Made by a program: the position numbers and the translations under genes. A stretch of 64,000 bases of DNA from Candidatus Hydrogenedentota bacterium (GTDB taxonomy: Bacteria; Hydrogenedentota; Hydrogenedentia; Hydrogenedentales; JAJRTN01). Shown one piece after another: positions 8,631 through 52,003 of this stretch; position 1 is the first letter of the stretch; every line of letters begins with the position of its first letter. Location of the stretch: assembly GCA_024278275.1 (NCBI GenBank), contig JAJRTN010000039.1, positions 21,030 through 85,029 on the forward strand, given 5' to 3'. A model generated the notes under the pieces. The model was given only the letters and a program-made list of their open reading frames with translations, was not told the DNA's origin and made no database searches.

Positions 8631-8718
8631 CTCTCCTCCCGTCATTCCCGCGAAAGCAGGGCTCCATGGGATCGGGGGGAAGCACCTTGACCTTTTCCGT
8701 GGATTCCCGCTGCGCGGG
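8631..8718. repeat. palindromic MITE-like repeat, copy A (composite: half unit plus full unit in reverse orientation)
   Basis: ccgtcattcccgcgaaagcaggg ... ccgtggattcccgctgcgcgggaatgacgg, with terminal inverted repeats cgtcattcccgcg / cgcgggaatgacg. Translated artefacts of it appear in ORFs 8587..8823 and 8642..8938. Confidence 0.7.
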
Positions 8719-8819
8719 AATGACGGAAGGGGGACGTCGGGAGGTTACCCGCCACCGGGCACCACGACGAGCCGAAACGAGACAGGCGTGCGCAAAGGAA
8801 GGCTGGTGAAGTATCCGGG

Positions 8820-9623
8820 CTAGATTGACGCCCCTGCGTTGGCGGACACGAGCTCAATCTCGAAAATGTGGGGCCAGCGTTTTCCCGTAACGAAGAGCCG
8901 GCCGTTCGTTGTGTCGTAGGCAATCCCATTGAGCACATCTGTTTGGGGCGTACGGTCTTCGGCGGCCAACAGCCCGGTCAGGTCCACCCATGACACCACG
9001 GTCCCCGTATCCGGATCAACGATGACCATGTAATCCGTTTGCCACACGTTGGCAAAAACACGGCCGTTGATGTATTCAAGTTCGTTCAGCCGGGTAACCG
9101 GGGCGTCATTACTCCGCACCTCGACACGTCTCGTTTCGGCGAGTGTCTCCGGGTCCAGGAAGCGGAGCCACGCCGTGCCATCGCTCATGATGAGTTGCTC
9201 GTCATCGTGGGTGAGGCCCCAGCCCTCGCCTTCGTAGGTGAAAGTGCGCGTCTGCTCAAGGCGGTCCCGGTCGTAGATAAACCCGGTCTTCTCCCGCCAC
9301 GTAACCTGGTAGATGCGATCACCGAAAACCGTGATGCCCTCGCCGAAAAAACTGTGTGCCAGGCTGGTTTGCTGCAACACGGCACCGCTTTCCAGGGCGA
9401 CTCGGCGGAGCGTCGAAGCGCCATAAAGCCCCGTGCCTTCAAAAAGGCCCGCATCAGTAATGGCCAGCCCCTGGGTGAAGGCGTTCGTGTCATGGGGGTA
9501 GGTGTTGACCACCGTGTAGGTATAGCGCGGTTGTTCCTCGGGAAGGTCCGGCGGGACGGGTTCGCAGGCCCCGAAACCCACCGAAAGTGACAGGCAGAAC
9601 GAAAGCATCAGCCGCGGACTCAT
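8820..9623 (-). CDS. glutaminyl-peptide cyclotransferase (plant/bacterial-type glutamine cyclotransferase), probable lipoprotein
   Basis: Full-length similarity to bacterial/plant-type glutamine cyclotransferases (beta-propeller blades, for example NGIAYDTTNGRLFVTGKRWP). Likely start MSPRLMLSFCLSLSVGFGAC (signal peptide with Cys) at 9623. Confidence 0.8.
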   Translation of the reverse strand: MSPRLMLSFCLSLSVGFGACEPVPPDLPEEQPRYTYTVVNTYPHDTNAFTQGLAITDAGLFEGTGLYGASTLRRVALESGAVLQQTSLAHSFFGEGITVFGDRIYQVTWREKTGFIYDRDRLEQTRTFTYEGEGWGLTHDDEQLIMSDGTAWLRFLDPETLAETRRVEVRSNDAPVTRLNELEYINGRVFANVWQTDYMVIVDPDTGTVVSWVDLTGLLAAEDRTPQTDVLNGIAYDTTNGRLFVTGKRWPHIFEIELVSANAGASI

Positions 9624-9776
9624 AGGACACCTTTCCCATGCGTTGAGACATGCCCAGTATACCACCGGGGACGATCACGCCGGACTCACGCAAGCTTTCC
9701 GGCAACACAAGACATGCTCCACCCCTTTTGTGGCTGGTGGATGATATCCCCCGCGGGCGAAAGCGTGCGGACCGGG

Positions 9777-9995
9777 CTACTTGAACCGGTAGGTGATGCG
9801 GCCCTTGGTGAGGTCATAGGGCGACATCTCAAGCGTCACCCGGTCGCCGGGCAGGATACGAATGTAGTACTTGCGCATCTTCCCGGAGATGTGGGCCAGA
9901 ACCATGTGATCGTTCTCGAGCTTTACGCGGAACATGGCATTCGGCAGTGGCTCAACCACTGTTCCCTGTACCTCTAAAGGTTGTTCCTTTTCCAT
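9777..9995 (-). CDS. infA: translation initiation factor IF-1
   Basis: 72 aa [24 protein letters not shown]...[18 protein letters not shown], collinear with E. coli InfA. SD AGGAG. Confidence 0.97.
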
Positions 9996-10045
9996 AGACT
10001 CCTGATGTTTCCTCTGCTGGGGTTAAAGGGTCCGAAGCGCGGCGT

Positions 10046-10070
10046 GGGTTCACGGCGAGCACAAACCTCT
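10046..10070. promoter_or_regulatory. CCGTTCACGG-core motif (type X), 51-75 nt upstream of the infA start
   Basis: gggttcacggcgagcacaaacctct. Same motif and same spacing as upstream of the DJ-1 gene (12165-12190). Confidence 0.5.
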
Positions 10071-10204
10071 CCCTTTCCGCCGCATGGCGGCACTCAGGGC
10101 ACCGCTTATGAAGTATATCATATCCCTTTGCACCGCGCACCCTTGGAGGCATTTGCAAAATTGGCGTTCTTCTTACGTACCCTTCTGGATGTTGCGGTCG
10201 AGAG

Positions 10205-10253
10205 AACCGTTCACGGAAATTCGGCGGGTCGTGCTCTCTGTGAACGGTTACCT
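10205..10253. promoter_or_regulatory. inverted pair of CCGTTCACGG-core motifs forming a 13-bp-stem hairpin
   Basis: aaccgttcacgga-N19-tctgtgaacggtt. The right arm with its flank, gtcgtgctctctgtgaacggttacc, is nearly identical to the reverse complement of 12165-12190. Confidence 0.5.
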
Positions 10254-10482
10254 GTTATTCAACGGCAAAGGGGCTTGTCGAGACGTCGCCGTGTCAACCA
10301 CCGTTTCCGGCCCGGATGTTTCACCAACGCCCTGTTGCGCAGGCGTACCCCGGCCCATCTCAGGGACTTGTCTCGTTCGGCGAACTCGACATGTATCTAC
10401 ACGCTATCGTCCGCCTCGCTCCGCCAAACCCCTGACCGGCCCCTCCGCACATGCTCACGACGAAGAGGATGAAATGTCCGGG

Positions 10483-11223
10483 CTAGCCTTCTTCAATCGT
10501 CAGGTGGATCTCCGCGGACGGGCTGTTGAAGATGCGCTTGGATTCGCCAACCCCCATGATGACGCTGCCCAGGAAGCGGGCGTCACCGCCTTCGACTCGG
10601 CTTTCGCTTTTGCTCTCGTTAAGTTTGTTCTCCTCGCCCGATTGTTCCCGGCCCAGGTGTCCCTCAAAGCGCAGCAGAACCCGGTCCCCCTCATCCAGCG
10701 GCATGACTTCGCCACGTATCTCGAAGGCACCCTCGCCGCCATGCTCGGTCTGCTCCCGTGCTTCCACATGGGCCGCCTCGCGCTCGTGGCGGTTTGCGCC
10801 CGCCTCGAAATGGCGCGTGGCGGTGAGAATGGACACCGAGCCGTGCAGCGTTTCGAAGATCAGACGCAGCGTGCGGCCCAGCATGCCCGGATCTTCGGGG
10901 CTTTCCCCGTGTTCTTCGGCCTCCTCCCGCGCATGGCGTTCCCGCGCTTCGCGCTCCTCCCGGGCCAACTGTTCCAACAGTTCCAAAGACCAATTATGAA
11001 CCTGGTCGAGCCGTTCGCCCAGCTCGGTGACAATGCGTTCACTGAACACGCGAAGGTCGTTTTCATCCACCTCCGCGAGTTGCACCATGGCCTCAGCCAG
11101 GTCCGCGTGGGTCCGGTCCAGGGCTTCCCGCGCATGGTCCATCATGGCGTCCCACTCTTGCGCAACCGCCGGTGAGGCCGCCACGAGAAGTGCCAAACAC
11201 AACGTAACAGCGATTTTTCGCAT
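10483..11223 (-). CDS. secreted hypothetical protein (signal peptide, acidic Glu/Arg-rich helical region)
   Basis: 246 aa, MRKIAVTLCLALLVAASPAVAQEW signal peptide. SD AGGAGGA before the ATG at 11223. Antisense partner ORF 10084..11175(+) looks non-coding. Confidence 0.6.
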   Translation of the reverse strand: MRKIAVTLCLALLVAASPAVAQEWDAMMDHAREALDRTHADLAEAMVQLAEVDENDLRVFSERIVTELGERLDQVHNWSLELLEQLAREEREARERHAREEAEEHGESPEDPGMLGRTLRLIFETLHGSVSILTATRHFEAGANRHEREAAHVEAREQTEHGGEGAFEIRGEVMPLDEGDRVLLRFEGHLGREQSGEENKLNESKSESRVEGGDARFLGSVIMGVGESKRIFNSPSAEIHLTIEEG

Positions 11224-11250
11224 GTCTTCATCCTCCTGACTGGTTGGGGG

Positions 11251-11532: not shown

Positions 11533-11558
11533 AATCGTCTCCGCCGCGGGAAACCGGG

Positions 11559-12110: not shown

Positions 12111-12164
12111 GACCAATCCTCCTGTCACGGCCTGCGTTCCATGTCAGTTGACAAAGCCAGTCGG

Positions 12165-12190
12165 TAACCGTTCACGGAGAGCACAACCCT
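12165..12190. promoter_or_regulatory. CCGTTCACGG-core motif (type X), 55-80 nt upstream of the DJ-1 start
   Basis: taaccgttcacggagagcacaaccct. A partner motif in opposite orientation lies at 12336-12352 (ggatttccgtgaacag). Confidence 0.5.
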
Positions 12191-12423: not shown

Positions 12424-12453
12424 CTCTTCCTCCCGTCATTCCCGCGCACGCGG
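12424..12453. repeat. palindromic MITE-like repeat, copy B
   Basis: cgtcattcccgcgcacgcgggaatccacgg, in a 510-bp intergenic region. The artefact ORF 12369..12701 translates it as SRVRGNDG. Confidence 0.7.
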
Positions 12454-12639
12454 GAATCCACGGGAAAAGGTAAATTCCCGTAAGGGACCACCCTTCTGGC
12501 CTGTGTGGCGGCGAGAGGATTTGGCGCGGCGGGGCCGCAGGAATGCGTGACGATAGGGGCGAAACGCTCGCGACAGGCATGCCCACGTCGGGCCGTGGGA
12601 ACATGCGGAAAGGGTCTTGTCCGGCCCAACGTTCCCCGT

Positions 12640-14051: not shown

Positions 14052-15707
14052 CTATGTGTCCGGCGTCTCCGTATCGTCTCCGCCACCCACCACCCGGGGA
14101 AGGCGAACCCGCATCGAAGTGCCGCCTTCCGGCCGTGCGGCCACCTGCATGGTCCCATCGTGGGAAGTCACAATGCGGAGACAAATGGCCAGCCCCATAC
14201 CGACGCCTCGCTCTTTCTCGGTGAAAAAAGGCTCAAAAATGCGTGACACCTTGTCCGGCGGGATTCCCGGCCCCTCATCATCGAAGCGGACTTCGGCCGG
14301 ACCGGCGTCCGTGAGCAGCGAGATGGTCAAGGTGCCCTGCTCGTGCATCGCCTCAATGGCGTTCTGACCGAGGTTAAGAAAAACCTGACGCAACTGCATG
14401 CGGTCCCCCAGCACCTCGACCACGGTCTCCGGGGTCCGCGTGGTAATACGCAGATCCCGGGCATGGGCAAACTGCCGTTCAAGATGGGCGCGCACGTTGT
14501 CCACCATGGCACTGAGATTCACGATGGTGTGGCGGCGGCTGGGATCCCGCGCGAAATCCAGGAATCCCGTCACGATATCATTCAAATGGTCGGACTCACG
14601 AATGGCGATATTGGCCAAGCGCTCCACCATGGCCGGCTTCTCCGTACCCCGGCGCAATTCTTCCATCGCCCCGCGAATAGCGGCCACCGGATTGCGTATC
14701 TCATGGGCCAGGCCGGCCGTCAGCTCGCCGATTACCGCCATCCGGTCCTGCTGTTGGAGGAGCTGACGCATGTGGGCCATCTCCGTCAAGTCGGTAAACG
14801 AGGCGATGAGGCCCGTAACAGCGCCGCGTGAATCACGCAAAGGGTTGGTGGTGAGTCCCAGCAATTTGGTTTCTTGTTCACCCACGCGGGCGTGAAACTC
14901 ATAACTGGTGAAATCCTTCTGGCTGCGCAGGGCGGTCACCACGGGATTCTCGGCGCCGCTTTCCGGCATTATGATGCCTTCCACGTGACGTCCCGCCACG
15001 TTCCCTTCATCGACGCCCAGAATATGGCAGGCCGCCCGGTTCATGGCGATCACCAGTCCCTTGGTGTCGCAGATCAGGAATCCACTGCTCAGGTTGTCGA
15101 GGATCTCCCGCTGAAACTGCTTCATCCCGCTGACGCGCTGATTCCAATAGCCGCTTATGAAGGCCGTAAAGAAGAATCCAATCACGAGAATGAGAAAGTG
15201 ATACCAGTGGGTCAGGGGGTCGTCGCTCCGCGGCGTGGATACGGCGAAATGGAAAAACATGAACAACGAGGAGAGCGTGGCGAAAACAAAGCCCTGGCTG
15301 AGTCCCATGAGGACACCCGCCTCCAGGATGACCGTCACCAGTAGGAAGGTAAAGAAACTCTTTTCCGCGCCACTAAAGCTGATGGTAATGGCCACCACGC
15401 CAAAATCCACCATCATCTGCATCCAGGTGAGGGCGGGGTTGACTCCCGGCCGCCCCCGCAGCGACACCAGGTACCAGATGCCGCTGGCGCAGGCCGCCAG
15501 GTAAACCCCCGTGAGAAGGAACAGATAACGCTCCTCCGCGGCCACCAGGTGGGCGCCCGTGGCCACCACGAGCAGCAGACCCAGGCGGGCCGCGCCCACG
15601 AACCAGAGCCACGATACGGGGCCGTCGTAGGAAGGCGCCAGGAAGCCGAACGTTGCGGGAACCTTAAACGCCCCGCCCGATGATTGTAACGACGTCTTCC
15701 GGGTCAC
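14052..15707 (-). CDS. pilS: membrane sensor histidine kinase (multi-TM, PAS, HisKA, HATPase_c), PilS-like
   Basis: 551 aa, about 6 N-terminal TM helices, H-box GLAHEIRNP, G-box near the C-terminus. GTG start overlaps the upstream pilT stop (GTGA). Confidence 0.85.
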   Translation of the reverse strand: MTRKTSLQSSGGAFKVPATFGFLAPSYDGPVSWLWFVGAARLGLLLVVATGAHLVAAEERYLFLLTGVYLAACASGIWYLVSLRGRPGVNPALTWMQMMVDFGVVAITISFSGAEKSFFTFLLVTVILEAGVLMGLSQGFVFATLSSLFMFFHFAVSTPRSDDPLTHWYHFLILVIGFFFTAFISGYWNQRVSGMKQFQREILDNLSSGFLICDTKGLVIAMNRAACHILGVDEGNVAGRHVEGIIMPESGAENPVVTALRSQKDFTSYEFHARVGEQETKLLGLTTNPLRDSRGAVTGLIASFTDLTEMAHMRQLLQQQDRMAVIGELTAGLAHEIRNPVAAIRGAMEELRRGTEKPAMVERLANIAIRESDHLNDIVTGFLDFARDPSRRHTIVNLSAMVDNVRAHLERQFAHARDLRITTRTPETVVEVLGDRMQLRQVFLNLGQNAIEAMHEQGTLTISLLTDAGPAEVRFDDEGPGIPPDKVSRIFEPFFTEKERGVGMGLAICLRIVTSHDGTMQVAARPEGGTSMRVRLPRVVGGGDDTETPDT

Positions 15708-16780
15708 GCCGTTCCTTTATCGATCAGGTGTTGCAGTCCTTCGGGGTCGGAGCTGCGTTTAAAAGCCATGTCTGTGGTGATAATACCGCGCCGCATAAGG
15801 CGGTACAGCGATTGGTTCATGGTACACATTCCCTCGCCCTTTCCGATCTCGATCATGGAAGGAATCTGCTCCAGTTTTTCGGCGCGAATAAGAGAGCGGA
15901 TGGCGGGATTGGCGAGCATGACCTCCATGGCCAGCGCGCGGCCCATGCCGTCGGCACGGGGAATGAGCTGTTGCACCACGACGGCTTCCAGTACGAAAGA
16001 AAGCTGCGTCCGTACCTGATCTTGCTGCGAGGCGGGAAACACGTCGATAATACGGTTCATGGTCTGAAGGGCGTCGTTCGTGTGGAGTGTCGCAAAAGCG
16101 AGGTGGCCGGTTTCCGCCACCGTAAGCGCCGCCTGGATGGTTTCCGTATCCCGCATTTCACCGATGAGTATAACATCCGGATCCTGTCGCAGCACCCGCT
16201 TCAGGGCGTCGGAAAAGGAATTCGTGTCCGCGTGTATTTCTCGCTGATTTACCACCGCGCGGTTATGCCGATGAAGGTACTCGATGGGGTCCTCGATGGT
16301 GATAATGTGCACGTTGCGCTCGCGGTTGATCTTGTCCACGATGGCGGCCAGGGTGGTGGATTTGCCGCTGCCCGTCGGCCCGCACACCAGGACCAGTCCA
16401 ACGGGGTAGTCGGCGAATTCCGAGATCACGCGGGGCAGCCCCAGTTGCTCGAAAGAGAGGATTTCGAAAGGAATCGCCCGGAAAGCCGCCACCACCGAGC
16501 CGCGGTCACGGTAGACATTGAGGCGAAAACGGCTCAGTCCCTCGACACCGAAAGACATGTCGCATTCCCGTGTCTCCTCGAATTCGGAGATCTGCTCCTC
16601 ATTCATGACACTGTAAATGATTTCCTGCGTTTGATCCGCATTGAGCCGCTCGTACCCGGTCAGGGCCTCCAGGCCGCCGTGGATACGAATCATGGGCGGC
16701 CCCCCCACCACGATATGAAGGTCGCTCGCCCCTTCCTGGATCATCTTGGTCAGCAGTTCTTTTATCGTTGGCGTGGCCAT
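15704..16780 (-). CDS. pilT: twitching motility / retraction ATPase PilT (second copy)
   Basis: 358 aa, [21 protein letters not shown]. Confidence 0.92.
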   Translation of the reverse strand: MATPTIKELLTKMIQEGASDLHIVVGGPPMIRIHGGLEALTGYERLNADQTQEIIYSVMNEEQISEFEETRECDMSFGVEGLSRFRLNVYRDRGSVVAAFRAIPFEILSFEQLGLPRVISEFADYPVGLVLVCGPTGSGKSTTLAAIVDKINRERNVHIITIEDPIEYLHRHNRAVVNQREIHADTNSFSDALKRVLRQDPDVILIGEMRDTETIQAALTVAETGHLAFATLHTNDALQTMNRIIDVFPASQQDQVRTQLSFVLEAVVVQQLIPRADGMGRALAMEVMLANPAIRSLIRAEKLEQIPSMIEIGKGEGMCTMNQSLYRLMRRGIITTDMAFKRSSDPEGLQHLIDKGTA

Positions 16781-16918: not shown

Positions 16919-18643
16919 TCAGTCCTCCATCGTATGCTCCAACACCTGTTCGATGGAGGACAAACCCTTGGCCGCCTTGGCCAGTGCGTTTTGGCGAAGC
17001 GACTTCATCCCGCAACGAATGGCCGCCTCCTTAATCTCGTAGCCCGTGGCGTTCTTGAGCACCAGGGGGTGAATCTCGGGCCAGTTCAGCAACACTTCCG
17101 TGGCGGCGACCCGCCCGCGATAACCCGTTTCCTTGCATTTGCCGCATCCACGCCCCCGCACGAAGGTGGGTTTCTCGATGTAATCGAACGGCTTGAACTG
17201 AATCCGGTCCAGCACGTCCTGGGGAACCATAATGGGTTCCTTACACTCGGCGCACACCCGCTTAAGCAAACGCTGGGCCGCCGCCAGGGCAACGGACGAT
17301 TGTACCAAAAAGGGTTCGATCCCCATGTCGATGAGACGGGGAAACACGCCCGGCGCGTCGTTGGTGTGCAGCGTGCTGAGCACGAGGTGTCCCGTCAGCG
17401 CCGCCTTCACGGCCACGTCCGCCGTTTCACCGTCTCGAATCTCGCCGACCATCACCACATCCGGGTCCTGGCGCAGAATCTGGCGAAGCGCCTGGGCAAA
17501 GGTAAAACCAATGGCTGACTGCACCTGGACCTGGTTCACCCCGAACAATTCATACTCGATGGGATCTTCGACCGTTACCAGATTGCTCTCAACCCGGTTC
17601 AATTCATGGAGTGCACTATAGAGCGTGGTCGTTTTACCGCTACCCGTCGGCCCCGTGAGCAGTATCATTCCGTGGGGCATTTTCAGGGCCTCGGCAAAGG
17701 CTTCCATGGGCTGAGGCTCAAATCCCAGTTTCTCCAGGTCCAGGGTCAGATTGCCTTGGTCAAGCACGCGGAGCACGATCTTCTCCCCGAACTTGGTGGG
17801 CAGAAAACCCACGCGAAAATCGATTTCACGGCCCTTGTAGCGAATACGGAACCGCCCGTCCTGGGGAAGGCGGTGTTCGTCGATACGGCAGCCCGCCAGG
17901 ATCTTGAAGCGGGCGATAATGTTGTGTTGAAGCGATTTGGGCGGGGCCTTCGCTTCTTCAAGCGTACCGTCAACGCGGTAACGGATCCGGATGAGTTTTT
18001 CAAAGGGCTCGAAATGGATGTCGCTCGCATCGCGCTCCAGGGCATTGAAGAGGATGAGCCGCGCCAGCTTTTTTACCGGCTCGTCCTCCGAACCGGCTTC
18101 CAGTTTTGACACGTCCTCAATGTCATCCTGCTCTTTCAATTCCTCCATCTTTTCCGCGTCACTATCCTGGCCGACAAGCGAATCGTACAGGTTTTCGGCC
18201 GCGTCGCCACCATAGTTTCGCTCAATGGCATCGGCCAATTCCGAGGCCACGGCGACCACCGGCTCGATGTCATAGCTGATCAGCATGCGCAGGTCGTCCA
18301 GCGCCATGATGTTCAGCGGGTCGGCCATGGCGAGGGTGAGCACGTCGCCCGTAACGGACACGGGCAGCATGAGGTACTGGCGCGCCAGGGTTTCGGGCAC
18401 TTCGGCCAAGACCTCTTTGGGAATCGAATAGTGGGCAACGCGGATATGGGGTATGCCGAGTTGCTCACTGAGGGTAATCACCAGATCTTCTTCCGAAAGA
18501 TAGCCCCTCTCCACGAGAAGACTGGGCAGACTCTGGCCCGAGCTGCGGTGAAGAGCGATGCACTCGCGCAACTGTTCCTCGGTAACAAGCTTCTGTTCGA
18601 GAAGCATGTCGGGAAGTCGTTTCCTGGGAATCCTGGTGGCCAA
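16919..18643 (-). CDS. pilB: PilB-type type IV pilus assembly ATPase (second cluster)
   Basis: 574 aa, N-terminal GspE_N-like domain, Walker A GPTGSGKTTTLYS, C-terminal CAEC...CGKC. Confidence 0.92.
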   Translation of the reverse strand: MATRIPRKRLPDMLLEQKLVTEEQLRECIALHRSSGQSLPSLLVERGYLSEEDLVITLSEQLGIPHIRVAHYSIPKEVLAEVPETLARQYLMLPVSVTGDVLTLAMADPLNIMALDDLRMLISYDIEPVVAVASELADAIERNYGGDAAENLYDSLVGQDSDAEKMEELKEQDDIEDVSKLEAGSEDEPVKKLARLILFNALERDASDIHFEPFEKLIRIRYRVDGTLEEAKAPPKSLQHNIIARFKILAGCRIDEHRLPQDGRFRIRYKGREIDFRVGFLPTKFGEKIVLRVLDQGNLTLDLEKLGFEPQPMEAFAEALKMPHGMILLTGPTGSGKTTTLYSALHELNRVESNLVTVEDPIEYELFGVNQVQVQSAIGFTFAQALRQILRQDPDVVMVGEIRDGETADVAVKAALTGHLVLSTLHTNDAPGVFPRLIDMGIEPFLVQSSVALAAAQRLLKRVCAECKEPIMVPQDVLDRIQFKPFDYIEKPTFVRGRGCGKCKETGYRGRVAATEVLLNWPEIHPLVLKNATGYEIKEAAIRCGMKSLRQNALAKAAKGLSSIEQVLEHTMED

Positions 18644-18727: not shown

Positions 18728-21127
18728 TCACGCCGCCTGCTCCGATCCCAAATGGCTTAGAATCTCCGTTGCCATTTCCACATTCATATCCTGTCCCACC
18801 AATTCCGAAAAGGCCAGGATCTTCCGCAGCGATCCGGTCATTTTACGAATATCATCCGTGACGCGCATGGCGATAAGCGACAGGATCTCTTCCGGCACCG
18901 TGACTTTGGCCGCCTTGGCGCAGTGACGGAGAATCTCCATCCGTGTCTCCCATTCGGGCGCTTTCAACTCCGCCACAATGCCGCTGGAAAAGCGGGAAAT
19001 AAGGCGCTGCTCCAATAGGCCCAGGCGGTCGGGCGCTTTGTCACTCGCAATGATAATCTGCCGATTCTGCTGATACAACACGTTAAAAATGTGAAAGAAC
19101 TCTTCTTGCGCCTCCACCCGTCCCCCCATGAACTGAATATCATCCAGGATAAGCACATCCCAGTGACAATAGTTTTCCCGGAAGGCGTCGACGGCCTCGT
19201 CTTTGAGGGCTTCCGCCAGGCGCCGGGAAAAATGACTGGCCGACACATAGCCCACACGCCGGCTCGGGTCGTTGGCCAGGATGGCGTTGCCCGTGGCGCT
19301 GATAAGATGGGTCTTGCCGATACCCACGTGTCCGTAAAGGAAAAACGGGTTGTATTCCCCCCCCGGACGCGCCGCCACGGCCTGCGCCAGTTTGAAGGTG
19401 AAGCCATTGGTCTTGCCGGGAAAGAATCGGTCCAGGGTAAGACTTTCCAGGGGGTGCTCGGACTCCAGCGCCTCCCGCACCCGTTCGTCGGCTTCGTCCA
19501 TCTCGGGATTGCGGCTATCCGGCCCGGTCACCCCGCCAAAAGGCGCCACCGACGCGTGGCGTTCGAGACGGCTTTTACCGAGGTCGCGGCGATTCTGATC
19601 CGCCACGGTCGCCGTTTCAACCAGGTGGGATGTCTGCTGAACCGCCTGCAAGGTGGCCTCCGCAATTTCCGCCAACCGCTTCCCCTGCTCTTCCTGCGTC
19701 TGCCGCGCGGCTTCAAAGGCCTCGCGAACACTCGCATACATGGCTTCAGACAGCGCTTCCTTGGTTAAACCGCTTGCTTCCTTTTTCCCCATGGCGGCCC
19801 GAAGCTGAACCATCATGGTGGCCATGGCTTCCTGCATGGCGCCGGTTACGCTCTCCCGGATGGCCTCCCCCAATGCCTCGGGAGAAGGCAAAGCGGCGGA
19901 AGGCTTGTTCTCACGGGCACGTAACTGGACCATCATGACCGCCATGGCTTCCTGCAACGCCCCCGCGATACCCTCTTGGATGATCGTTGCCATGGCCTGC
20001 CCGTCCGGGGCCGGCGCCGCCGGCGCGGGCTGCACCGCGGTACGCAATTCGTCCGCAAGCAACGATACCGATTCCTGTAAGGCATCACGCATCATGTTTG
20101 CCAAGGCACCCATGTCAAGCGTGGGAGAAACCGCCGGGGCCGCTGGCGCAAGCGACGCCACGGTCTCCTGCATGGAATCGCGCAAAACAGTCGCCAAAGC
20201 ATCCACATCCAGCGTCGGCGGGGCCGCCGGCGCCGGCTCCACGGCGGGTCGTGCTTCCAGGGCCTTCACAAGATCGCCCATGGCCTCCCGCAAGCCGTCG
20301 CGCATCACCTCACCCAGTTCCGCCGCCGAAAAGGCCGGCAACGACGAGGGTGCCGCCGACGGCGTGGCCAAGGGAGGCGGTGGCGCCGGAGGGAGCGAAG
20401 GCGCGGCCTCCATGACCGGCGCTTCTTTCGGGGGGGCTTCTTCGGAGGGCTTGTTCGTGGAGGGCGCGGCCTTGGCAGGGGGCGGCTTGTCCGCCTTGGG
20501 CGGATCGGGTTGCCTGGGGGAAAGGGCGCTCAGGCCCAGGGAGTCCGTGGTCATGGCCGGTGCGCCGCCGGAAGAGGCCGACTCGGGAAAAACCCGATGA
20601 ACCACCGTGTCGAAGTGGTGCCAATTACATAGGATCGGCTTGATCCGAAGATCGGGACACGACTGGCGAACCGCTTCCAGAGCATCGATATCCAAGGGGT
20701 CCACCATGGCAATGGTAAGGATCCGGCCTAACTTGTCGATTGGGATGAGGCCATACTTAAGGCACGTCTCCCTGGGAACCAGGGCCACCACCTCCGGGCT
20801 GATATCGTAATCCAGCAGGCTGAGGTGGGGAATCTTGCACTGCTTCACCACGCAGGAGGTGATATCCTCTTGCGTTACATGCCCCAAACCGACAAGAATC
20901 TGCCCAAGAAATCCCCCGGAGCGCTCCTGCTCCGCAATCCCCTCGTCCAACTGCTCCCGCGTTATCAGATTCTGCTCTAACAGTAACTCACCCAAACGCT
21001 TAGGCGGAGCGGGCGCGGTGCGTTTGGGGGCTCTTTTCACACTCTTGCCACGACTGAACACGACAATAAACCCTGCCTGATCTGGATGCGACCCAATAAC
21101 CCGGAAGACTGACAGGTATTGTAGCAC
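18728..21127 (-). CDS. fusion protein: PilB/MshE-type N-terminal (MshEN-like) domain, Pro/Ala-rich repeat linker, DnaA domain-III AAA+ ATPase (no DnaA domain I or IV)
   Basis: 799 aa as tracked. The 21127 start is a GTG; the true start may be an internal GTG near 21040-21061. N-terminal region RLGELLLEQNLITREQLDEGIAEQ...DPLDIDALEAVRQ resembles GspE N-domains. C-terminal 230 aa are collinear with DnaA domain III (NPFFLYGHVGIGKTHL, VLILDDIQF, RLISRFSSG). Confidence 0.8.
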   Translation of the reverse strand: MLQYLSVFRVIGSHPDQAGFIVVFSRGKSVKRAPKRTAPAPPKRLGELLLEQNLITREQLDEGIAEQERSGGFLGQILVGLGHVTQEDITSCVVKQCKIPHLSLLDYDISPEVVALVPRETCLKYGLIPIDKLGRILTIAMVDPLDIDALEAVRQSCPDLRIKPILCNWHHFDTVVHRVFPESASSGGAPAMTTDSLGLSALSPRQPDPPKADKPPPAKAAPSTNKPSEEAPPKEAPVMEAAPSLPPAPPPPLATPSAAPSSLPAFSAAELGEVMRDGLREAMGDLVKALEARPAVEPAPAAPPTLDVDALATVLRDSMQETVASLAPAAPAVSPTLDMGALANMMRDALQESVSLLADELRTAVQPAPAAPAPDGQAMATIIQEGIAGALQEAMAVMMVQLRARENKPSAALPSPEALGEAIRESVTGAMQEAMATMMVQLRAAMGKKEASGLTKEALSEAMYASVREAFEAARQTQEEQGKRLAEIAEATLQAVQQTSHLVETATVADQNRRDLGKSRLERHASVAPFGGVTGPDSRNPEMDEADERVREALESEHPLESLTLDRFFPGKTNGFTFKLAQAVAARPGGEYNPFFLYGHVGIGKTHLISATGNAILANDPSRRVGYVSASHFSRRLAEALKDEAVDAFRENYCHWDVLILDDIQFMGGRVEAQEEFFHIFNVLYQQNRQIIIASDKAPDRLGLLEQRLISRFSSGIVAELKAPEWETRMEILRHCAKAAKVTVPEEILSLIAMRVTDDIRKMTGSLRKILAFSELVGQDMNVEMATEILSHLGSEQAA

Positions 21128-29669: not shown

Positions 29670-29700
29670 GGGGTCCCCGATGGTTCTTTCTCATTCCCAC

Positions 29701-29755
29701 GTTCCCCCGTGGGAATGCCTGTTCCCGCCTTCGCGGAAATGACGGTTGAGAGGTG
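29701..29755. repeat. palindromic MITE-like repeat, copy C (subfamily 2)
   Basis: tcattcccacgttcccccgtgggaatgcctgttcccgccttcgcggaaatgacgg, intergenic between the HAD gene and purN. Confidence 0.65.
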
Positions 29756-30465: not shown

Positions 30466-30496
30466 CTCATTCCCACGGCCCCCGCGGGGATGCGTG
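30466..30496. repeat. palindromic MITE-like repeat, copy D (subfamily 2)
   Basis: ctcattcccacggcccccgcggggatgcgtg. Confidence 0.6.
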
Positions 30497-30541
30497 TCGC
30501 AGACGTCCCGCCTGCATCCTACCAAATACCGGGCCGGACGT

Positions 30542-30724
30542 TCACAGGAGCCGAAGCACCAGTACCGCCACGAAGGCCGCCACCGTCGCAACAATCCAGA
30601 AGGTCCGGCAGGGCCAGCAAACCCGGGCCGCCTCGGCCGCGCCCAGGAAATGGTAGCACTCGGGACAGGCCCGCGAAGTCGCGGGGATCTCCTGCCCGCA
30701 CTTGGGACAGCGCATCATCTCCAT
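30542..30724 (-). CDS. small zinc-ribbon / single-TM protein (60 aa), hypothetical
   Basis: MEMMRCPKCGQEIPATSRACPECYHF (CxxC...CxxC) followed by a hydrophobic helix. Sits tightly between dapF and purN. Confidence 0.4.
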   Translation of the reverse strand: MEMMRCPKCGQEIPATSRACPECYHFLGAAEAARVCWPCRTFWIVATVAAFVAVLVLRLL

Positions 30725-36509: not shown

Positions 36510-36583
36510 GGGATGATCCCAACCTGGATTCCACCCCGCCGGGCTTGCCTATCCGTGCCCGGCGGGGTATCCTTGTCGGCACG

Positions 36584-36594
36584 GTTCACAGACA
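36584..36594. promoter_or_regulatory. CCGTTCACGG-core motif copy, 33-44 nt upstream of the orphan pilT
   Basis: cggttcacaga (compare accgttcacaga at 10237-10249). Confidence 0.3.
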
Positions 36595-36626
36595 TAAAAC
36601 CGCCACCAAAACGGGAGCAACAGGCC

Positions 36627-39302: not shown

Positions 39303-39338
39303 TCTCGTTCCCACGGTCCCCCGCGGGAATGCCTGTTG
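39303..39338. repeat. palindromic MITE-like repeat, copy E (subfamily 2)
   Basis: tctcgttcccacggtcccccgcgggaatgcctgttg, intergenic between uxaC-like and menE. Confidence 0.65.
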
Positions 39339-39363: not shown

Positions 39364-40812
39364 TTACCGAAGCAGATCCCGCGCCCGTTCGATGAATGGC
39401 CGGCGCATGATCTTGCTCCCCGCCGGGGCGATATCATCGGGCCAGGGAAAAATCCGGCGCGGGATCTTGTAGCCCGGCAATGCCTCCCCGAGCGCCTTCA
39501 TCATGCGTTCCATGGTCAGTCCGCCGCCTTCCACGAAGGCCACGGGCGTGTTACCGAAGCGTCCGTGGGGAACGGGCACGACCACCGCGCGACGCACACC
39601 GGGCAGACGGCACAGGGCCCGCTCGATCTCTTCGGGCTGAATGTTCTCTCCTCCCGCGATGAATTGGTTGTCGCTGCGGCCCGTGACGATGAGCCGTCCC
39701 CGCGCATCGATCCTTCCCAAATCGCCCGTGGCGAAGTAACCGTCCCGGTCGAAAGGCCGTTCAAGCCCCTCGCGGTGATAGTAGCCGAGGAAGCGCGTGG
39801 GTCCGCCCACGAGGAGCCACCCCTCCGCGTCAATGCGCAGGCTTTCCGGGTGCAGCGGATACCCCGACGTCAGCAGCGTGTCCAGGTCCGCCCCCGGCGG
39901 CGTGGTGGCCACCTGCGACGCGGCTTCCGTAAGACCATAGGTGGTGTGAATGGGCAGACCCGCGTCATGGGCGTCACGCAGAAGTCCCTCCGGGATGGCA
40001 CTGCCCCCCAGGAGGATGGCCTTCATCCGCCGCAAGCGGTCCACGGCGGATTCTTCCTCCAAGAGGCGATGCAGTTGCGCCGCCACGAGGGATACATGGG
40101 TGACGCCTTCCAGCGCGTCGGACAGCGTCACACCCGGCGCGGGGAGAGCCACGGTTGCCCCCGCCACGAGACAGCGGAACAGCACGCCCAGCCCGGCGAC
40201 ATGAAAAAGCGGCAGCGACAGCAGCCAGGCATCCCCCGGCGCGAGGGGAATGTTTTTGTTGGAGAGCCGGGCGCTCTCGCGGAGGTTGCCGAAGCTAAGC
40301 AGCGCGGCCTTGGGCGTGCCCGTGCTGCCGGAGGTCAGGACGAGTACCGCCGGTTGGTCCTCCGGCAAGGTGACCGGCCCGGGTGCCACGGCACGCCCGT
40401 CGAAGGCGGGGTATTCTTCCATCGGTGGCTTGCAGCCCACGTCCCGGCAAATCCGCAGCACGTATTCCCCGGGGAAGGCGGGATCCAGCGGCAGGGCGAT
40501 TCCCCCGGCACGGATGATGGACAGAAGGGTCACCAGCGCTCCCACCCCATCGCCGTCATTCCCGCGAACGCGGGAATCCACGGCGTTGGATTGACTGCCT
40601 GAAGCCCGGGATGGATCCTCGCTTTCGCGGGGATGGCGGTGCGCTGAAGCGCACCCTACGGCCACCACCTCGCCGGGCGTGATGCGCGGTTCCCGCCCCT
40701 GCACCATGCCCTCCAATTGGGCGGATGTGTATTCCCCCGTGCCGGTGCGCAGCGCCACGGCATTGGGATGTTTCGCGGCCATGGCGGCCAGGGGACAGGG
40801 AACGTCACTCAT
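39364..40812 (-). CDS. menE: o-succinylbenzoate--CoA ligase (AMP-dependent synthetase) carrying an in-frame repeat-derived insertion
   Basis: 482 aa, LTSGSTGTPKAA AMP-binding motif, YGLTE, GGENIQPEEIE. Adjacent to menC and menA. Residues about 53-91 (GCASAHRHPRESEDPSRASGSQSNAVDSRVRGNDGDGVG) are encoded by repeat copy F. Confidence 0.85.
   Translation of the reverse strand: MSDVPCPLAAMAAKHPNAVALRTGTGEYTSAQLEGMVQGREPRITPGEVVAVGCASAHRHPRESEDPSRASGSQSNAVDSRVRGNDGDGVGALVTLLSIIRAGGIALPLDPAFPGEYVLRICRDVGCKPPMEEYPAFDGRAVAPGPVTLPEDQPAVLVLTSGSTGTPKAALLSFGNLRESARLSNKNIPLAPGDAWLLSLPLFHVAGLGVLFRCLVAGATVALPAPGVTLSDALEGVTHVSLVAAQLHRLLEEESAVDRLRRMKAILLGGSAIPEGLLRDAHDAGLPIHTTYGLTEAASQVATTPPGADLDTLLTSGYPLHPESLRIDAEGWLLVGGPTRFLGYYHREGLERPFDRDGYFATGDLGRIDARGRLIVTGRSDNQFIAGGENIQPEEIERALCRLPGVRRAVVVPVPHGRFGNTPVAFVEGGGLTMERMMKALGEALPGYKIPRRIFPWPDDIAPAGSKIMRRPFIERARDLLR
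40540..40656. repeat. palindromic MITE-like repeat, copy F, located inside the menE coding sequence (in frame, 117 bp)
   Basis: ccgtcattcccgcgaacgcgggaatccacggcg core at 40553-40585 followed by ...cccgggatggatcctcgctttcgcggggatgg. Same family as copies A and B. Confidence 0.7.
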
Positions 40813-44170: not shown

Positions 44171-44180
44171 GCGTAACATC

Positions 44181-44751: not shown

Positions 44752-47916
<3,165 letters not shown>

Positions 47917-48032
47917 TTACCCCGGAAGACCGGAAAATGTACACGGTGGGCGACGTGGGAAGGTGGAAGCAGGAAAAAACCGGCCCGCCGAAGCGGACCG
48001 GTCGGTATTCATGTCATGCTGTGGCCTGGTGA

Positions 48033-50464: not shown

Positions 50465-50539
50465 GTTCGGCGAAGGAAAGACCAGGAACGAAGCAGTGAC
50501 AGCAAGGGGGAGATGACTACCTCGATAGGAAAGGATCCC

Positions 50540-51151
50540 CTACCCACCGTTCCCCGTGCTTTCATCGAAGAGGCCATGGTTTACGGTCAGGTGTTGGCCG
50601 TCTTCGAGATGCCTTCCGAGAATAAAGAAGTAATCGCTCAGGCGATTGACAAAAACCAACAGGTGTTCGCAGGCAAAACCGCGCTCCCGTTCCCGAAGAC
50701 GCACCAGGTTACGTTCGAGGGCCCGCGCGACGGTCGCCGTGAGGTCGGCCTCGGCGGCAAGCAGGTTGCCCGCGGAAACGATGAAGTCCTTGGGCAGGGC
50801 GAGCGTTGCTTCGAGCCGGGCCTGCTCCGCTTCGAGACGCGCCACGTGTGCCGGACCGATGTCGGTCTTTCGGTATTCCGGGTGCCGGTTCCGAAAATCA
50901 CTGATGGCCGCTCCCATGGCAAAGCACGCATGAAGCAGCCAGAACAGGAAAGCGGCGGTCTGTTCGTCCTCGGGCCGTTGCTCCAGGAGACGCAGTCGGA
51001 GCAGGGCGGTTTGGGTGCGCAGCGCGTCCACCGCGCCGGTGCATTCGATGACGGGAGCGCCCTTGGACACCGTGTCCCCGCCCAGGGTGCGCGTGCTCCC
51101 CGCGTCACCGCGCTTCGTGGTGATCCGCGAAGGTTTCTTCCGGTCAACCAA
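50540..51151 (-). CDS. ATP:cob(I)alamin adenosyltransferase, PduO-type
   Basis: ITTKRGDAGSTRTLGG...VSKGAPVIECTGAVDAL, collinear with the PduO/MMAB N-terminal motif. Confidence 0.8.
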   Translation of the reverse strand: MVDRKKPSRITTKRGDAGSTRTLGGDTVSKGAPVIECTGAVDALRTQTALLRLRLLEQRPEDEQTAAFLFWLLHACFAMGAAISDFRNRHPEYRKTDIGPAHVARLEAEQARLEATLALPKDFIVSAGNLLAAEADLTATVARALERNLVRLRERERGFACEHLLVFVNRLSDYFFILGRHLEDGQHLTVNHGLFDESTGNGG

Positions 51152-51905
51152 GGCGAATCCCCACGGGGCAATGATCCGAGCCCATCACCTGGTCGAGAAT
51201 GAAGGCCTCCTTCACGCAGGGCAGGAAGTCCTCGTTCACACAATGATAGTCCAGGCGCCAGCCGATATTCCGCGGCCGTGCGCGGGTCCGGTAGGACCAC
51301 CACGAATAATGGCCCGGCTCATCGCAGAAATGGCGGAAGGTGTCCACGTAGCCGTGGCCGAGAAAGCGGGTCATGGCCCGGCGTTCCTCGATATAGTAGC
51401 CCGCGTTGTTTTCGTTGGCTTCGGGCCGCGCCAGGTCGATGGGCTTGTGAGCGATATTGAAATCACCGCAGAGAATGACGTTTTTCCCCTGTTTCACCAG
51501 TTTGTTGGAAAAGCGCGTAACGGACTTGCAGAAATCGAGCTTGTAGTCCAGCCGTGCCCGCTCGGCCTGGCTGTTGGGCCAGTAGCCGTTGAGGATGGTG
51601 AAGTCCGGGTATTCCAGCACCTGGAGCCGGCCCTCGTCGTCGAAGCGCTTCAGCCCGATGGTGCCCACGGAGACCGGTTTCTCGCGCACAAAGGCCGCCG
51701 TACCCGCGTAGCCCTTCTTGACGGCGGGATTCCACAGGCTTATGTATCCGAAGGGACGCAGTTCTTCCGGTTTCAGGTCGCCGGGCAAGGCCCGGGACTC
51801 CTGGATACAGAGAATGTCCGGCCGGGCCTCCTCCAGCCAGGACAGGAAGCCGTTTTTCAGGGCGGCGCGGATGCCGTTCACGTTCCAGGAAAGGATGGTG
51901 ATCAT
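51144..51905 (-). CDS. xth: exodeoxyribonuclease III (AP endonuclease, ExoIII/APE1 family)
   Basis: MITILSWNVNGIRA, LCIQESR, CGDFNIAH, SDHCPV motifs. Confidence 0.92.
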   Translation of the reverse strand: MITILSWNVNGIRAALKNGFLSWLEEARPDILCIQESRALPGDLKPEELRPFGYISLWNPAVKKGYAGTAAFVREKPVSVGTIGLKRFDDEGRLQVLEYPDFTILNGYWPNSQAERARLDYKLDFCKSVTRFSNKLVKQGKNVILCGDFNIAHKPIDLARPEANENNAGYYIEERRAMTRFLGHGYVDTFRHFCDEPGHYSWWSYRTRARPRNIGWRLDYHCVNEDFLPCVKEAFILDQVMGSDHCPVGIRLG

Positions 51906-51974
51906 GGGGATTCCTCGACGGTCGTTGTCCGGTGATGGAACCGAGCATAGCGGCCCTGGTTTGTCTCATGCAAA

Positions 51975-52003
51975 CCCCGCGGGAATGGAGTACCCTTCCC
52001 GTG
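51975..52003. repeat. degenerate relative of the palindromic repeat (subfamily 2), copy G
   Basis: aaccccgcgggaatggagtacccttcccgtg, resembling ggtcccccgcgggaatgcc from copy E. Confidence 0.3.

What the first reader, a model, noticed from the sequence alone, without database searches (positions are those of the whole stretch)
8631..52003. Family of short palindromic MITE/REP-like repeats (at least 6 copies, two subfamilies)
Subfamily 1 core is (c)cgtcattcccgcg-N3-4-cgcgggaatccacgg. It occurs at 12424-12453 (cgtcattcccgcgcacgcgggaatccacgg), 40553-40585 (ccgtcattcccgcgaacgcgggaatccacggcg) and 8686-8718 in reverse orientation, with an extra half-copy at 8631-8652. Subfamily 2 core is tcattcccacgGtcccccgcgggaatgcctgtt. 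It occurs at 29701-29755, 30466-30496 and 39303-39338, with a degenerate relative at 51975-52003. All intergenic copies sit in short spacers next to gene ends. Each is an imperfect hairpin (ttcccgcg / cgcgggaa or attcccacg / cgtgggaat). Artefactual track ORFs translate them as VIPAKAGLHG, RHSRAAGIHG or SRVRGNDG. A dispersed, structured, roughly 30-110-bp element is typical of REP, MITE, Correia or RPE-like genome parasites, or of a domesticated regulatory or terminator module.
Basis: seen in the sequence. Interest (0 to 1): 0.6.

Follow-up and report, generated by a model that had tools for sequence, protein, structure and literature searches.

The report
Neisseria-type NTS hairpin repeats, one in menE
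The repeats are real and are copies of two hairpin-forming DNA families found in many bacterial phyla; the main one matches the Neisseria NTS/dRS3 repeat that small Ssn nucleases cut in single-stranded DNA, and one copy sits in frame inside the vitamin-K2 gene menE.

Summary
The window comes from an uncultured Hydrogenedentota genome.

**Subfamily 1** has six copies at four loci. They form two inverted doublets of about 87 nt, one singlet, and one arm fused to a subfamily-2 hairpin.
- The core is CGTCATTCCCGCG-N2-3-GCGGGAATCCACGG.
- Two copies meet the published definitions of the Neisseria Transformation Sequence (NTS/dRS3) and of the Ssn-related motif.
- The exact 30-mer occurs in genomes of about 10 phyla.
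- In sequences fetched by this motif, the only enzyme gene that recurs next to it is a small SsnA-like GIY-YIG nuclease.

No such nuclease and no transposase is encoded in the window, so the partner in this genome is inferred.

the doublet at 40554-40638 lies inside menE. It forms a 96-nt, 32-residue in-frame insertion that is absent from 12 homologues and is predicted to be a disordered loop.

**Subfamily 2** is not a variant of subfamily 1. It is a diverged member of a second widespread multi-hairpin family (TTCCCACGC...GCGTGGGAA). That family lies outside the published motif definition, and I found no description or partner gene for it.

**Verdict:** a new member of a known kind, with moderate interest.

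The parts
8640..8669 (+). NTS-type copy A, the degenerate arm of doublet 1 (CGTCATTCCCGCGAAAGCAGGGCTCCATGG)
   Evidence: covariance model R1 47.2 bits
8697..8726 (-). NTS-type copy B, the well-kept arm of doublet 1 (CCGTCATTCCCGCGCAGCGGGAATCCACGG, loop 1 nt shorter)
   Evidence: R1 49.4 bits
8630..8736 (.). Doublet 1: two convergent arms with a 27-nt spacer and pyrimidine-rich outer flanks. It lies 84 nt downstream of the glutaminyl-cyclase gene stop and about 600 nt upstream of a PilB-like ATPase gene.
   Evidence: Folds as one long ssDNA hairpin, -30.5 kcal/mol, z = -4.4. Aligns end to end with doublet 2. Gene context.
12434..12463 (+). NTS-type copy C, a singlet (CGTCATTCCCGCGCACGCGGGAATCCACGG). 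It lies in the 511-nt spacer between an NtrC-like regulator gene and a DJ-1/PfpI gene.
   Evidence: R1 53.2 bits. Meets the NTS consensus with 1 mismatch and the Ssn-related-motif regex. Hairpin -17.6 kcal/mol, z = -4.8.
40554..40583 (+). NTS-type copy D, the well-kept arm of doublet 2 (CGTCATTCCCGCGAACGCGGGAATCCACGG)
   Evidence: R1 51.3 bits. Meets the NTS and Ssn-related-motif definitions.
40609..40638 (-). NTS-type copy E, the degenerate arm of doublet 2 (CGCCATCCCCGCGAAAGCGAGGATCCATCC).
   Evidence: the repeat finder I9; R1 42.4 bits
40546..40641 (-). 96-nt (32-codon) in-frame insertion in menE, residues H58-G89. It consists of doublet 2 plus a few flanking bases.
   Evidence: Absent from 12 homologues (alignment A1). 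Codon-level comparison with the closest relative L231. pLDDT below 50 for residues 60-85, between a confident strand and a confident helix.
39364..40812 (-). menE (o-succinylbenzoate-CoA ligase), the host gene of doublet 2. It is the last gene of a menA-menC-menE cluster.
   Evidence: Pfam AMP-binding and AMP-binding_C. All 13-way invariant motif residues are retained. Neighbouring genes.
29722..29745 (-). NTS-like arm F (CGTCATTTCCGCGAAGGCGGGAAC), directly abutting subfamily-2 hairpin S2a
   Evidence: R1 37.2 bits over 29715-29748
29690..29723 (+). Subfamily-2 copy S2a (CTCATTCCCACGTTCCCCCGTGGGAATGCCTGTT), 21 nt upstream of the HAD-hydrolase start codon and downstream of purN
   Evidence: (D16); hairpin -14.5 kcal/mol, z = -4.0
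30466..30499 (+). Subfamily-2 copy S2b, between a conserved 60-aa small ORF and purN. The motif is absent from the orthologous spacer of relative L308.
39304..39338 (+). Subfamily-2 copy S2c, between convergent gene ends and 26 nt beyond the menE stop. It is absent downstream of menE in L231.
51963..52003 (+). Degenerate subfamily-2 relic. It keeps CTCAT...CCCCGCGGGAATG but has lost the left stem.
   Evidence: alignment A6

Best explanation
The window carries non-autonomous copies of two interspersed hairpin-repeat families.

**Family 1** (six copies) belongs to the NTS / Ssn-related-motif family, which includes the Neisseria dRS3 repeat. It is an oriented element of about 30 nt. Its palindrome ATTCCCGC/GCGGGAAT folds into a hairpin when the DNA is single-stranded. 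Its asymmetric flanks (CGTC on the 5' side, CC on the 3' side) give it a direction.

In characterised systems a roughly 95-aa GIY-YIG nuclease (SsnA) binds this hairpin. It cuts just upstream of it, only in ssDNA and only on the forward strand. The nuclease gene is typically flanked by the repeats.

Most likely mechanism here (inferred):
- A cognate Ssn-type nuclease encoded elsewhere in this Hydrogenedentota genome recognises these sites in ssDNA formed during replication, repair or DNA uptake.
- The repeats reached this lineage by horizontal transfer together with that gene.
- They multiplied as singlets and as inverted doublets of about 87 nt, and are now partly decaying.
- One doublet landed in menE in frame, in a surface loop, and is tolerated as a 32-residue disordered insert.

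**Family 2** is a separate multi-hairpin family whose enzyme partner is unknown.

Shown: identity of the motif, hairpin potential, doublet architecture, the in-frame insertion, absence from relatives, and the association with GIY-YIG genes in other genomes. Inferred: that an Ssn nuclease exists in this genome, how the copies spread, and any host function.
For: **Motif identity**
- Copies C and D fit CGTCATTCCCGCGMAVGCGGGAATCYRG with 1 mismatch and fit the published Ssn-related-motif regex (definitions from PMC11893778).
- Copy C matches at least 40 places in each of two N. gonorrhoeae records, at 91% identity over 35 nt.

**Distribution**
- The exact 30-mer occurs in at least 110 stretches of species-representative genomes. 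Their titles span Pseudomonadota, Chloroflexota, Actinomycetota, Acidobacteriota, Planctomycetota, Bacteroidota, Armatimonadota, Gemmatimonadota, Poribacteria and Paceibacterota.
- The looser core occurs in at least 120 viral contigs of 32-72% GC with unrelated flanks.

**Partner gene in other genomes**
- Among 756 ORFs lying within 200 nt of an NTS core in 230 fetched loci, the most recurrent family is an SsnA-like protein of about 96-103 aa, present in 7 independent loci. The other recurrent clusters are phage structural proteins from related contigs.
- Five of these ORFs are bracketed by repeats on both sides.
- They are GIY-YIG by Pfam, E = 1e-12 to 3e-17.
- The paper reports that 81% of genomes with more than 200 such motifs encode SsnA.

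**Structure of the copies**
- The copies fold as ssDNA hairpins well below shuffled controls.
- The two doublets align along their whole length and share the same strong-arm/weak-arm asymmetry.

**Lineage specificity**
- A full-model search finds no copy in 50 kb from three Hydrogenedentota relatives with 75-84% PurN identity, against six in this 64-kb window.
- A looser regex for the core palindrome of either family finds none in 63 kb (five stretches) from four relatives.

**menE insertion**
- Supported.
Against: - No SsnA-like ORF is present in the window (best hmmsearch E = 0.63).
- No transposase or nuclease domain appears among 43 of the 47 candidate genes scanned against Pfam or NCBIfam.
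- The rest of the genome could not be reached.
- Genome-wide copy number is unknown.
- The window copies end in CCACGG, not the CYRG of the Neisseria consensus.
- Four of the six copies are degenerate or have a shortened loop, and fail the strict definitions.
- Whether Ssn nucleases spread these repeats at all is a hypothesis in the literature too. For Neisseria, a RAYT transposase has been proposed instead (bioRxiv 10.1101/2021.07.10.451892).
Confidence: 0.6

Rival explanations
1. REPIN-RAYT system. The inverted doublets are the replicating units (REPINs). A single-copy, domesticated IS200-like tyrosine (HUH) transposase (RAYT) encoded elsewhere copies them. The GIY-YIG association would be secondary.
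For: - Two doublets of 85-87 nt fold as long hairpins. They are homologous along their whole length, which suggests the doublet was copied as a unit.
- Convergent pairs are common in other genomes: 43 of 111 close pairs.
- The menE insertion shows no convincing target-site duplication. From general knowledge, this fits HUH enzymes.
- Bertels and Rainey treat the same Neisseria sequence (ATTCCCGCGCAGGCGGGAATC) as a REPIN population tied to a Group 2 RAYT.
Against: - No RAYT or Y1 transposase domain is found in the window genes.
- No RAYT-like family recurs among 756 ORFs adjacent to the motif in 230 loci, whereas GIY-YIG does. However, RAYTs are single-copy, so this sample is weak.
- RAYT-associated REPs typically start with GTAG or GTGG (Nunvar et al. 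2010, from memory). These start with CGTC.
Confidence: 0.2
2. Host-selected functional sites. On this reading the hairpins are terminators, mRNA-stabilising stem-loops or binding sites for a host protein. They would be kept because they regulate the neighbouring genes, not because they are mobile.
For: - Most copies lie in short spacers near gene ends.
- Copy C supplies a -35-like hexamer for a weak promoter-like match (9 of 12 positions).
- S2a and S2b sit 21 and 36 nt upstream of start codons.
Against: - No core hairpin is followed by a T-run or flagged as terminator-like.
- Positions relative to genes are inconsistent: upstream, downstream, between convergent genes and inside a coding region.
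- The orthologous spacers of relatives lack them.
- The same 30-mer is found next to unrelated genes in about 10 phyla.
Confidence: 0.1
3. Artefact: chance similarity, or a chimeric or mis-assembled MAG contig that brought in foreign repeats.
For: The source is a metagenome-assembled genome: P0001 comes from a 101-kb NCBI contig with a single deposited member. Short repeats can cause mis-joins.
Against: - Shuffles give zero expected matches.
- Base composition is even across the window.
- Genes on both sides of each copy have Hydrogenedentota best hits and conserved synteny: ddl-dapF-purN-HAD-MFS in L308 and menA-menC-menE in L231.
- The menE frame runs uninterrupted through the insert.
Confidence: 0.02

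Closest known systems
Neisseria Transformation Sequence (NTS) / dRS3 and the wider Ssn-related motifs, substrates of SsnA-family GIY-YIG ssDNA endonucleases (Nat Commun 2025, PMC11893778)
   Same: - Nearly the same sequence: 27 of 28 consensus positions in two copies.
- The same ATTCCC-N8-GGGAAT palindrome.
- The same orienting CGTC head and a C after the stem.
- ssDNA hairpin, multi-copy and mostly intergenic.
- Cross-phylum distribution.
- Association with small GIY-YIG genes, reproduced here in other genomes.
   Different: - The host is an uncultured Hydrogenedentota.
- The 3' end is CCACGG, which extends the stem by pairing with CCGT.
- Copies are organised partly as asymmetric inverted doublets.
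- One doublet is inside a coding region. In N. meningitidis only 2% are reported to be intragenic.
- The nuclease gene was not found within the available 64 kb.
REPIN-RAYT systems (REP doublets forming hairpins; Bertels and Rainey)
   Same: - Inverted doublets under 130 bp that fold as a single long hairpin and look as if they were copied as units.
- Vertically persisting and slowly decaying copies.
- The Neisseria version of this very sequence has been analysed as a REPIN.
   Different: - No RAYT was found here or next to the motif in sampled loci.
- The head sequence is not GTAG or GTGG.
- Singlets and direct pairs are as common as convergent pairs in other genomes.
Rickettsia palindromic elements (RPE; Ogata et al. 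2000, from memory)
   Same: A palindromic repeat of about 100 nt inserted in frame in a conserved housekeeping enzyme gene. It adds a peptide segment in a surface loop without destroying conserved motifs. Rickettsia is listed among genomes rich in Ssn-related motifs.
   Different: Sequence similarity to RPEs was not tested. Only one of the four subfamily-1 loci in the window is intragenic.
Correia elements / classical MITEs
   Same: Short, non-coding, with terminal inverted symmetry, and dispersed.
   Different: - No convincing target-site duplication.
- No parent insertion sequence.
- The sequence quoted for Correia (TATAGTGGATTAACAAAAATCAGGACAA) has nothing in common with these repeats.

Membership tests
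NTS / Ssn-related motif repeats | Sequence fits CGTCATTCCCGCGMAVGCGGGAATCYRG with at most 1 mismatch | tested here: met
   Copies C (12434) and D (40554) fit with 1 mismatch. B fails only through a 1-nt shorter loop. A, E and F are degenerate.
NTS / Ssn-related motif repeats | Fits the degenerate Ssn-related-motif pattern HGTCWYN(0-2)YYVSBRHN(0-5)WNVSBRGN(0-2)RNCYNB | tested here: met
   Two matches (C and D), against a mean of 0.58 in 50 Markov simulations. The subfamily-2 type gives 0 of 250.
NTS / Ssn-related motif repeats | dRS3 palindrome ATTCCC-N8-GGGAAT able to form an ssDNA hairpin | tested here: met
   (z = -4.4 to -4.8 for the doublet and the singlet).
NTS / Ssn-related motif repeats | Many copies per genome, enriched over shuffled sequence | tested here: inconclusive
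   Enriched within the window: six copies against 0 expected. The genome-wide count is not obtainable.
NTS / Ssn-related motif repeats | A cd10448-type single-domain GIY-YIG (ssnA) gene in the same genome, typically flanked by the repeats | tested here: inconclusive
   None in the 64-kb window. The rest of the genome is unreachable. The architecture was confirmed in other genomes carrying the same 30-mer: L076, L110, L137, L179 and L181.
NTS / Ssn-related motif repeats | Strand-specific binding and cleavage by the nuclease in ssDNA | not testable with these tools
   Needs biochemistry.
REPIN-RAYT | Two inverted REPs less than 130 bp apart forming one long hairpin | tested here: met
   8640-8726 and 40554-40638.
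REPIN-RAYT | Cognate RAYT (Y1/HUH) gene flanked by the REPs | tested here: inconclusive
   No such domain in window genes. None recurrent next to the motif in 230 loci. The whole genome is unavailable.
REPIN-RAYT | Conserved GTAG/GTGG head of RAYT-associated REPs (from memory of Nunvar et al. 2010) | tested here: not met
   The head is CGTC.
RPE-like in-frame palindromic insertions | Repeat inserted in frame in a conserved gene, absent from orthologues, with the ORF intact | tested here: met
   The 96-nt insert in menE.
RPE-like in-frame palindromic insertions | Sequence homology to Rickettsia RPE families | not tested
   No RPE sequences were compared.
MITE | Target-site duplication and a related autonomous insertion sequence | tested here: not met
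   There is no clear duplication at the menE site. The length bookkeeping against homologues fits insertion without duplication. No insertion sequence is present in the window.
Intrinsic terminator | GC-rich hairpin followed by a T-run | tested here: not met
   None of the core hairpins is flagged.

The most novel reading that the evidence does not exclude
Subfamily 2 represents an undescribed, cross-phylum, modular multi-hairpin mobile element. Its units run about 100-110 nt, from TCGTTCCCACGC...GCGTGGGAATGC to GCATTCCCACGC...GCGTGGGAACGA, with internal hairpins that share the same loop.

It would have its own, still unknown, ssDNA-acting enzyme. That enzyme might be a distinct clade related to the Ssn nucleases, given the similar TTCCCRCG stems.

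Family 1 and family 2 are physically fused in this window, and both occur on L255 and L273. This would mean the two systems share or exchange machinery.
Probability: 0.3. Interest if true: 0.6.

Novelty: new member of a known kind. Interest (0 to 1): 0.42.

Why it matters
- **Range of the repeat.** The result extends the NTS/Ssn-type repeat to a candidate phylum known only from metagenomes. It shows that the very same 30-mer is shared across about ten phyla, which argues for repeated horizontal spread of a repeat-plus-nuclease pair.
- **A test case in menE.** The in-frame doublet in menE is a clean example of such a hairpin repeat being absorbed into an enzyme as a disordered loop, as RPEs are in Rickettsia. 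It is a convenient place to ask whether these elements shape proteins.
- **Annotation.** These repeats generate spurious small ORFs containing peptides such as VIPAKAG, RHSRA.G and RGNDG. They can also hide inside real genes.
- **An open question.** The second family appears widespread but I found no description of it, and it has no known partner. It is worth a dedicated survey.

Tried and rejected
1. **Reaching the rest of the source genome.** Exact-protein look-ups for MenE, P0001 and the HAD hydrolase found nothing.
2. **SsnA, GIY-YIG or transposase in the window.** A regex found nothing. A three-sequence HMM gave a best E of 0.63. Pfam/NCBIfam scans of 43 of the 47 candidate genes found none. 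The four left unscanned are 53453-53809, 53787-54437, 56601-56963 and 24481-24903. The MreB gene at 60620-61708 was identified by homology instead.
3. **Extra window copies.** The hit at 55846-55882 (17.9 bits) is a spurious match in the RNase G gene. The 28-nt similarity inside purN (30245-30272) is judged to be chance.
4. **Clean empty sites in relatives.** The orthologous purN-HAD, dapF-purN and menE-3' spacers of L308 and L231 lack the hairpins. They are too diverged to show precise insertion boundaries. L308 keeps only a CCGTCATT relic.
5. **Partner gene for subfamily 2.** I found no SsnA-like ORF in 540 kb, no recurrent neighbouring family and no literature match for 12 diagnostic strings.
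6. **Open reading frame through the doublet as evidence of selection.** Rejected, because 3 to 4 of the 6 frames are open in both doublets simply because they are GC-rich.
7. **PDB sequence search with an SsnA-like protein.** It returned only spurious WD40 hits.
8. **Strand bias relative to replication.** There are three forward and three reverse copies, too few to test.


Full report
**Observation**

Several positions are about 10 nt off.
- The copy given as 12424-12453 is at 12434-12463.
- The reverse copy given as 8686-8718 is at 8697-8726.
- Subfamily-2 copy 29701 starts at 29690.
- The 'half-copy' at 8631-8652 is a complete but degenerate copy at 8640-8669.
- A further degenerate copy at 40609-40638 was missed (repeat finder I9).

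The motifs are far beyond chance.
- ATTCCCNCG-N2-10-CGNGGGAAT: 3 matches against 0.00 expected.
- GTCATTCCCGCG with up to 2 mismatches: 35 matches against 12 +/- 3.9 expected.
- The subfamily-2 pattern: 3 matches against 0.00 expected.

A covariance model built from the six subfamily-1 copies (A2/R1) was run over the whole window without filters. It recovers those six at 37-53 bits. The next hit, at 17.9 bits, is a spurious match in the RNase G gene.

**Host and context**

The window has about 61% GC and even composition.
- MreB, PurN and MenE have their best named hits in Candidatus Hydrogenedentota/Hydrogenedentes MAGs.
- Identical proteins (P0001, P0241) come from one 101,441-bp NCBI contig.
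- A crude gene map and domain scans of 43 of the 47 candidate genes show ordinary chromosomal genes. These include pilus/secretion ATPases, dnaA, dinG, ddl-dapF-purN, menA-menC-menE, lacZ, mrdA-rodA-mreC-mreB and rng.
- No transposase or nuclease was found.

**Anatomy of subfamily 1**

The six copies occupy four loci.

Two loci hold convergent inverted doublets.
- The doublets are 8640-8669(+) with 8697-8726(-), and 40554-40583(+) with 40609-40638(-).
- Their spacers are 27 and 25 nt.
- In each, one arm is well kept (…GCGGGAATCCACGG). The other is degenerate in the same way (…GCRRGGMTCCAT).
- The two doublets align along their whole length, so the doublet looks like the unit that was copied.
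- Doublet 1 folds as one long ssDNA hairpin (-30.5 kcal/mol, z = -4.4).
- The singlet at 12434 folds with an extended stem, because the lineage-specific 3' CCACGG pairs with the 5' CCGT.

The sixth copy (29722-29745, minus strand) directly abuts a subfamily-2 hairpin.

**The copy inside a gene**

The doublet at 40554-40638 lies within the 482-codon menE frame.
- The Pfam AMP-binding match only begins at residue 145.
- An alignment with 12 homologues shows a 32-residue segment (H58-G89, nt 40546-40641) present only in the window protein. It is absent even from the closest relative, whose locus shows 59% MenE identity in a tblastn alignment that spans the insert, 80% MenA and 70% MenC.
- Codon-level comparison places it between VVAVGCASA and (D)GVGALVTLL. 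It shows no convincing target duplication.
- All invariant ANL-family motif residues are retained.
- An AlphaFold model (mean pLDDT 74) gives pLDDT below 50 for residues 60-85. These lie between a confident strand (49-53) and a confident helix (90-101).

The insert is therefore a tolerated disordered loop, in the manner of Rickettsia RPEs. The fact that the frame stays open is not itself evidence of selection, because 3 to 4 of the 6 frames are open.

**What subfamily 1 is**

A full-text search for the core string led to Nat Commun 2025 (PMC11893778). The paper makes these points.
- It defines the Neisseria Transformation Sequence as CGTCATTCCCGCGMAVGCGGGAATCYRG, which encompasses the dRS3 palindrome.
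- It also defines a degenerate Ssn-related motif.
- SsnA, a 94-aa GIY-YIG protein, binds and cuts this hairpin only in ssDNA and only in one orientation.
- ssnA genes are typically flanked by the repeats across many phyla.
- 81% of genomes with more than 200 such motifs have ssnA.

- Window copies C and D satisfy both definitions.
- Copy C matches at least 40 places in each of two N. gonorrhoeae records.
- The loose core hits at least 120 viral contigs of 32-72% GC with unrelated flanks.
- The exact window 30-mer hits at least 110 stretches of species-representative genomes, whose titles span about ten phyla.

I re-tested the gene association independently.
- Among 756 ORFs within 200 nt of a core in the 230 fetched loci, the most recurrent family is an SsnA-like protein of about 96-103 aa, present in 7 independent loci. 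The other recurrent clusters are phage structural proteins from related contigs.
- Five of these ORFs are bracketed by repeats on both sides.
- They are GIY-YIG by Pfam.
- No RAYT-like family recurs.

**What could not be shown**

The window itself has no SsnA-like ORF. The rest of the genome was out of reach. The partner enzyme in this organism, the genome-wide copy number and the means of spread are therefore inferred.

The REPIN-RAYT view of the same Neisseria sequence (bioRxiv 10.1101/2021.07.10.451892) remains a live rival. The doublet architecture favours it. The head sequence and the neighbour survey do not.

**Lineage specificity**

Three related Hydrogenedentota loci (75-84% PurN identity, 50 kb) contain no NTS-type copy in a full-model search. 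Those loci, together with the second sample's copy of one of them (L309) and the menE relative L231 (63 kb in all), contain no core palindrome of either family by regex.
- L308 has the same gene order (ddl-dapF-small ORF-purN-HAD-MFS).
- The coding parts, including a 60-aa zinc-ribbon ORF, align at 82% (alignment A4). The spacers that carry the repeats in the window do not align.
- One spacer in L308 keeps only a CCGTCATT relic.
- The region downstream of menE in L231 is unrelated.

This fits gain and expansion in the window's lineage. It did not yield a clean empty site.

**Subfamily 2**

A metagenome scan with the subfamily-2 pattern returned 45 stretches. A viral scan with the canonical form returned 31.

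Together they reveal a second widespread family, seen in contigs of 41-73% GC. Its form is (G)ATCGTTCCCACGC-loop-GCGTGGGAATGC, then one or two internal hairpins with the same loop, then the inverted terminal hairpin. A unit is about 100-110 nt (for example L246 5624-5730).

The window copies are diverged members.
- Their loop is GGTCCCCC.
- Each is preceded on the minus strand by an NTS-like or GCGGGAC-type hairpin (alignment A6).

Several results set this family apart.
- None of 250 such hairpins fits the Ssn-related-motif regex, against 318 of 396 NTS cores.
- No SsnA-like ORF occurs in 540 kb of these loci. At the rate seen in NTS loci only about 2.5 would be expected, so this is weak evidence.
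- No neighbouring gene family recurs.
- None of 12 diagnostic strings appears in the searchable literature.
- Two of these contigs (L255, L273) also carry NTS doublets.

**Function**

No core hairpin has a T-run or is flagged as terminator-like. Positions relative to genes are inconsistent. A purely regulatory reading is therefore unlikely.

**Verdict**

- This is a real, non-random repeat system.
- Its main component is a new member, in a new host phylum, of the known NTS/dRS3-Ssn family.
- One doublet is a notable in-frame insertion in menE.
- A second, apparently undescribed hairpin family rides alongside.

Noticed in passing
window 18728-21127 (-): A 799-aa DnaA homologue. Its N-terminus carries an MshEN-type cyclic-di-GMP-binding domain (residues 44-94), ahead of the DnaA AAA+/DNA-binding part (residues 476-796). 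This is an unusual fusion for a replication initiator.
   Followed up: no
window 3266-5020, 5047-6144, 6157-8025, 15704-16780, 16919-18643 (all -) and 36513-37706 (+): Six T2SSE-family (PilB/PilT-like) ATPase paralogues in 64 kb. Three have MshEN domains. They account for most of the long 'direct repeats' D1-D5.
   Followed up: partly
window 30542-30724 (-); L308 4596-4778: A conserved 60-aa zinc-ribbon small ORF between dapF and purN. The dapF-purN stretch that contains it aligns with a relative at 82% mean column identity, whereas the adjacent spacer carrying S2b is unalignable.
   Followed up: partly
window 10226-10252 and 12163-12189: A 27-nt inverted repeat, 93% complementary, with arms 1.9 kb apart. 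It brackets three genes including DJ-1/PfpI, and one arm lies inside ORF 10084-11175 (repeat finder I7). Its nature is unknown.
   Followed up: no
L110 2970-3338 (viral contig IMGVR_UViG_3300012964_000516): An SsnA-like GIY-YIG gene sits between terminase-like and portal-like ORFs with four NTS copies around it, like a free-standing homing-type nuclease in a phage genome.
   Followed up: partly
window 12439-12411 (-): NTS copy C itself supplies the -35-like hexamer ATGACG of a weak promoter-like match (9 of 12 positions) pointing towards the DJ-1/PfpI gene. A stronger match (TTGACA-17-TAAACT) lies just downstream at 12394-12366.
   Followed up: no
window 30245-30272 (inside purN): A 28-nt stretch 86% complementary to the 5' flank plus half-palindrome of NTS copy D (repeat finder I10). 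It is probably a chance coding similarity.
   Followed up: no
L273 (metagenome contig CERX01026238.1), 95-175, 3231-3312, 7815-7896, 8197-8279, 8355-8382: A 14-kb contig with four tight NTS doublets plus a subfamily-2 hairpin. It shows the same co-occurrence of the two families as in the window.
   Followed up: partly
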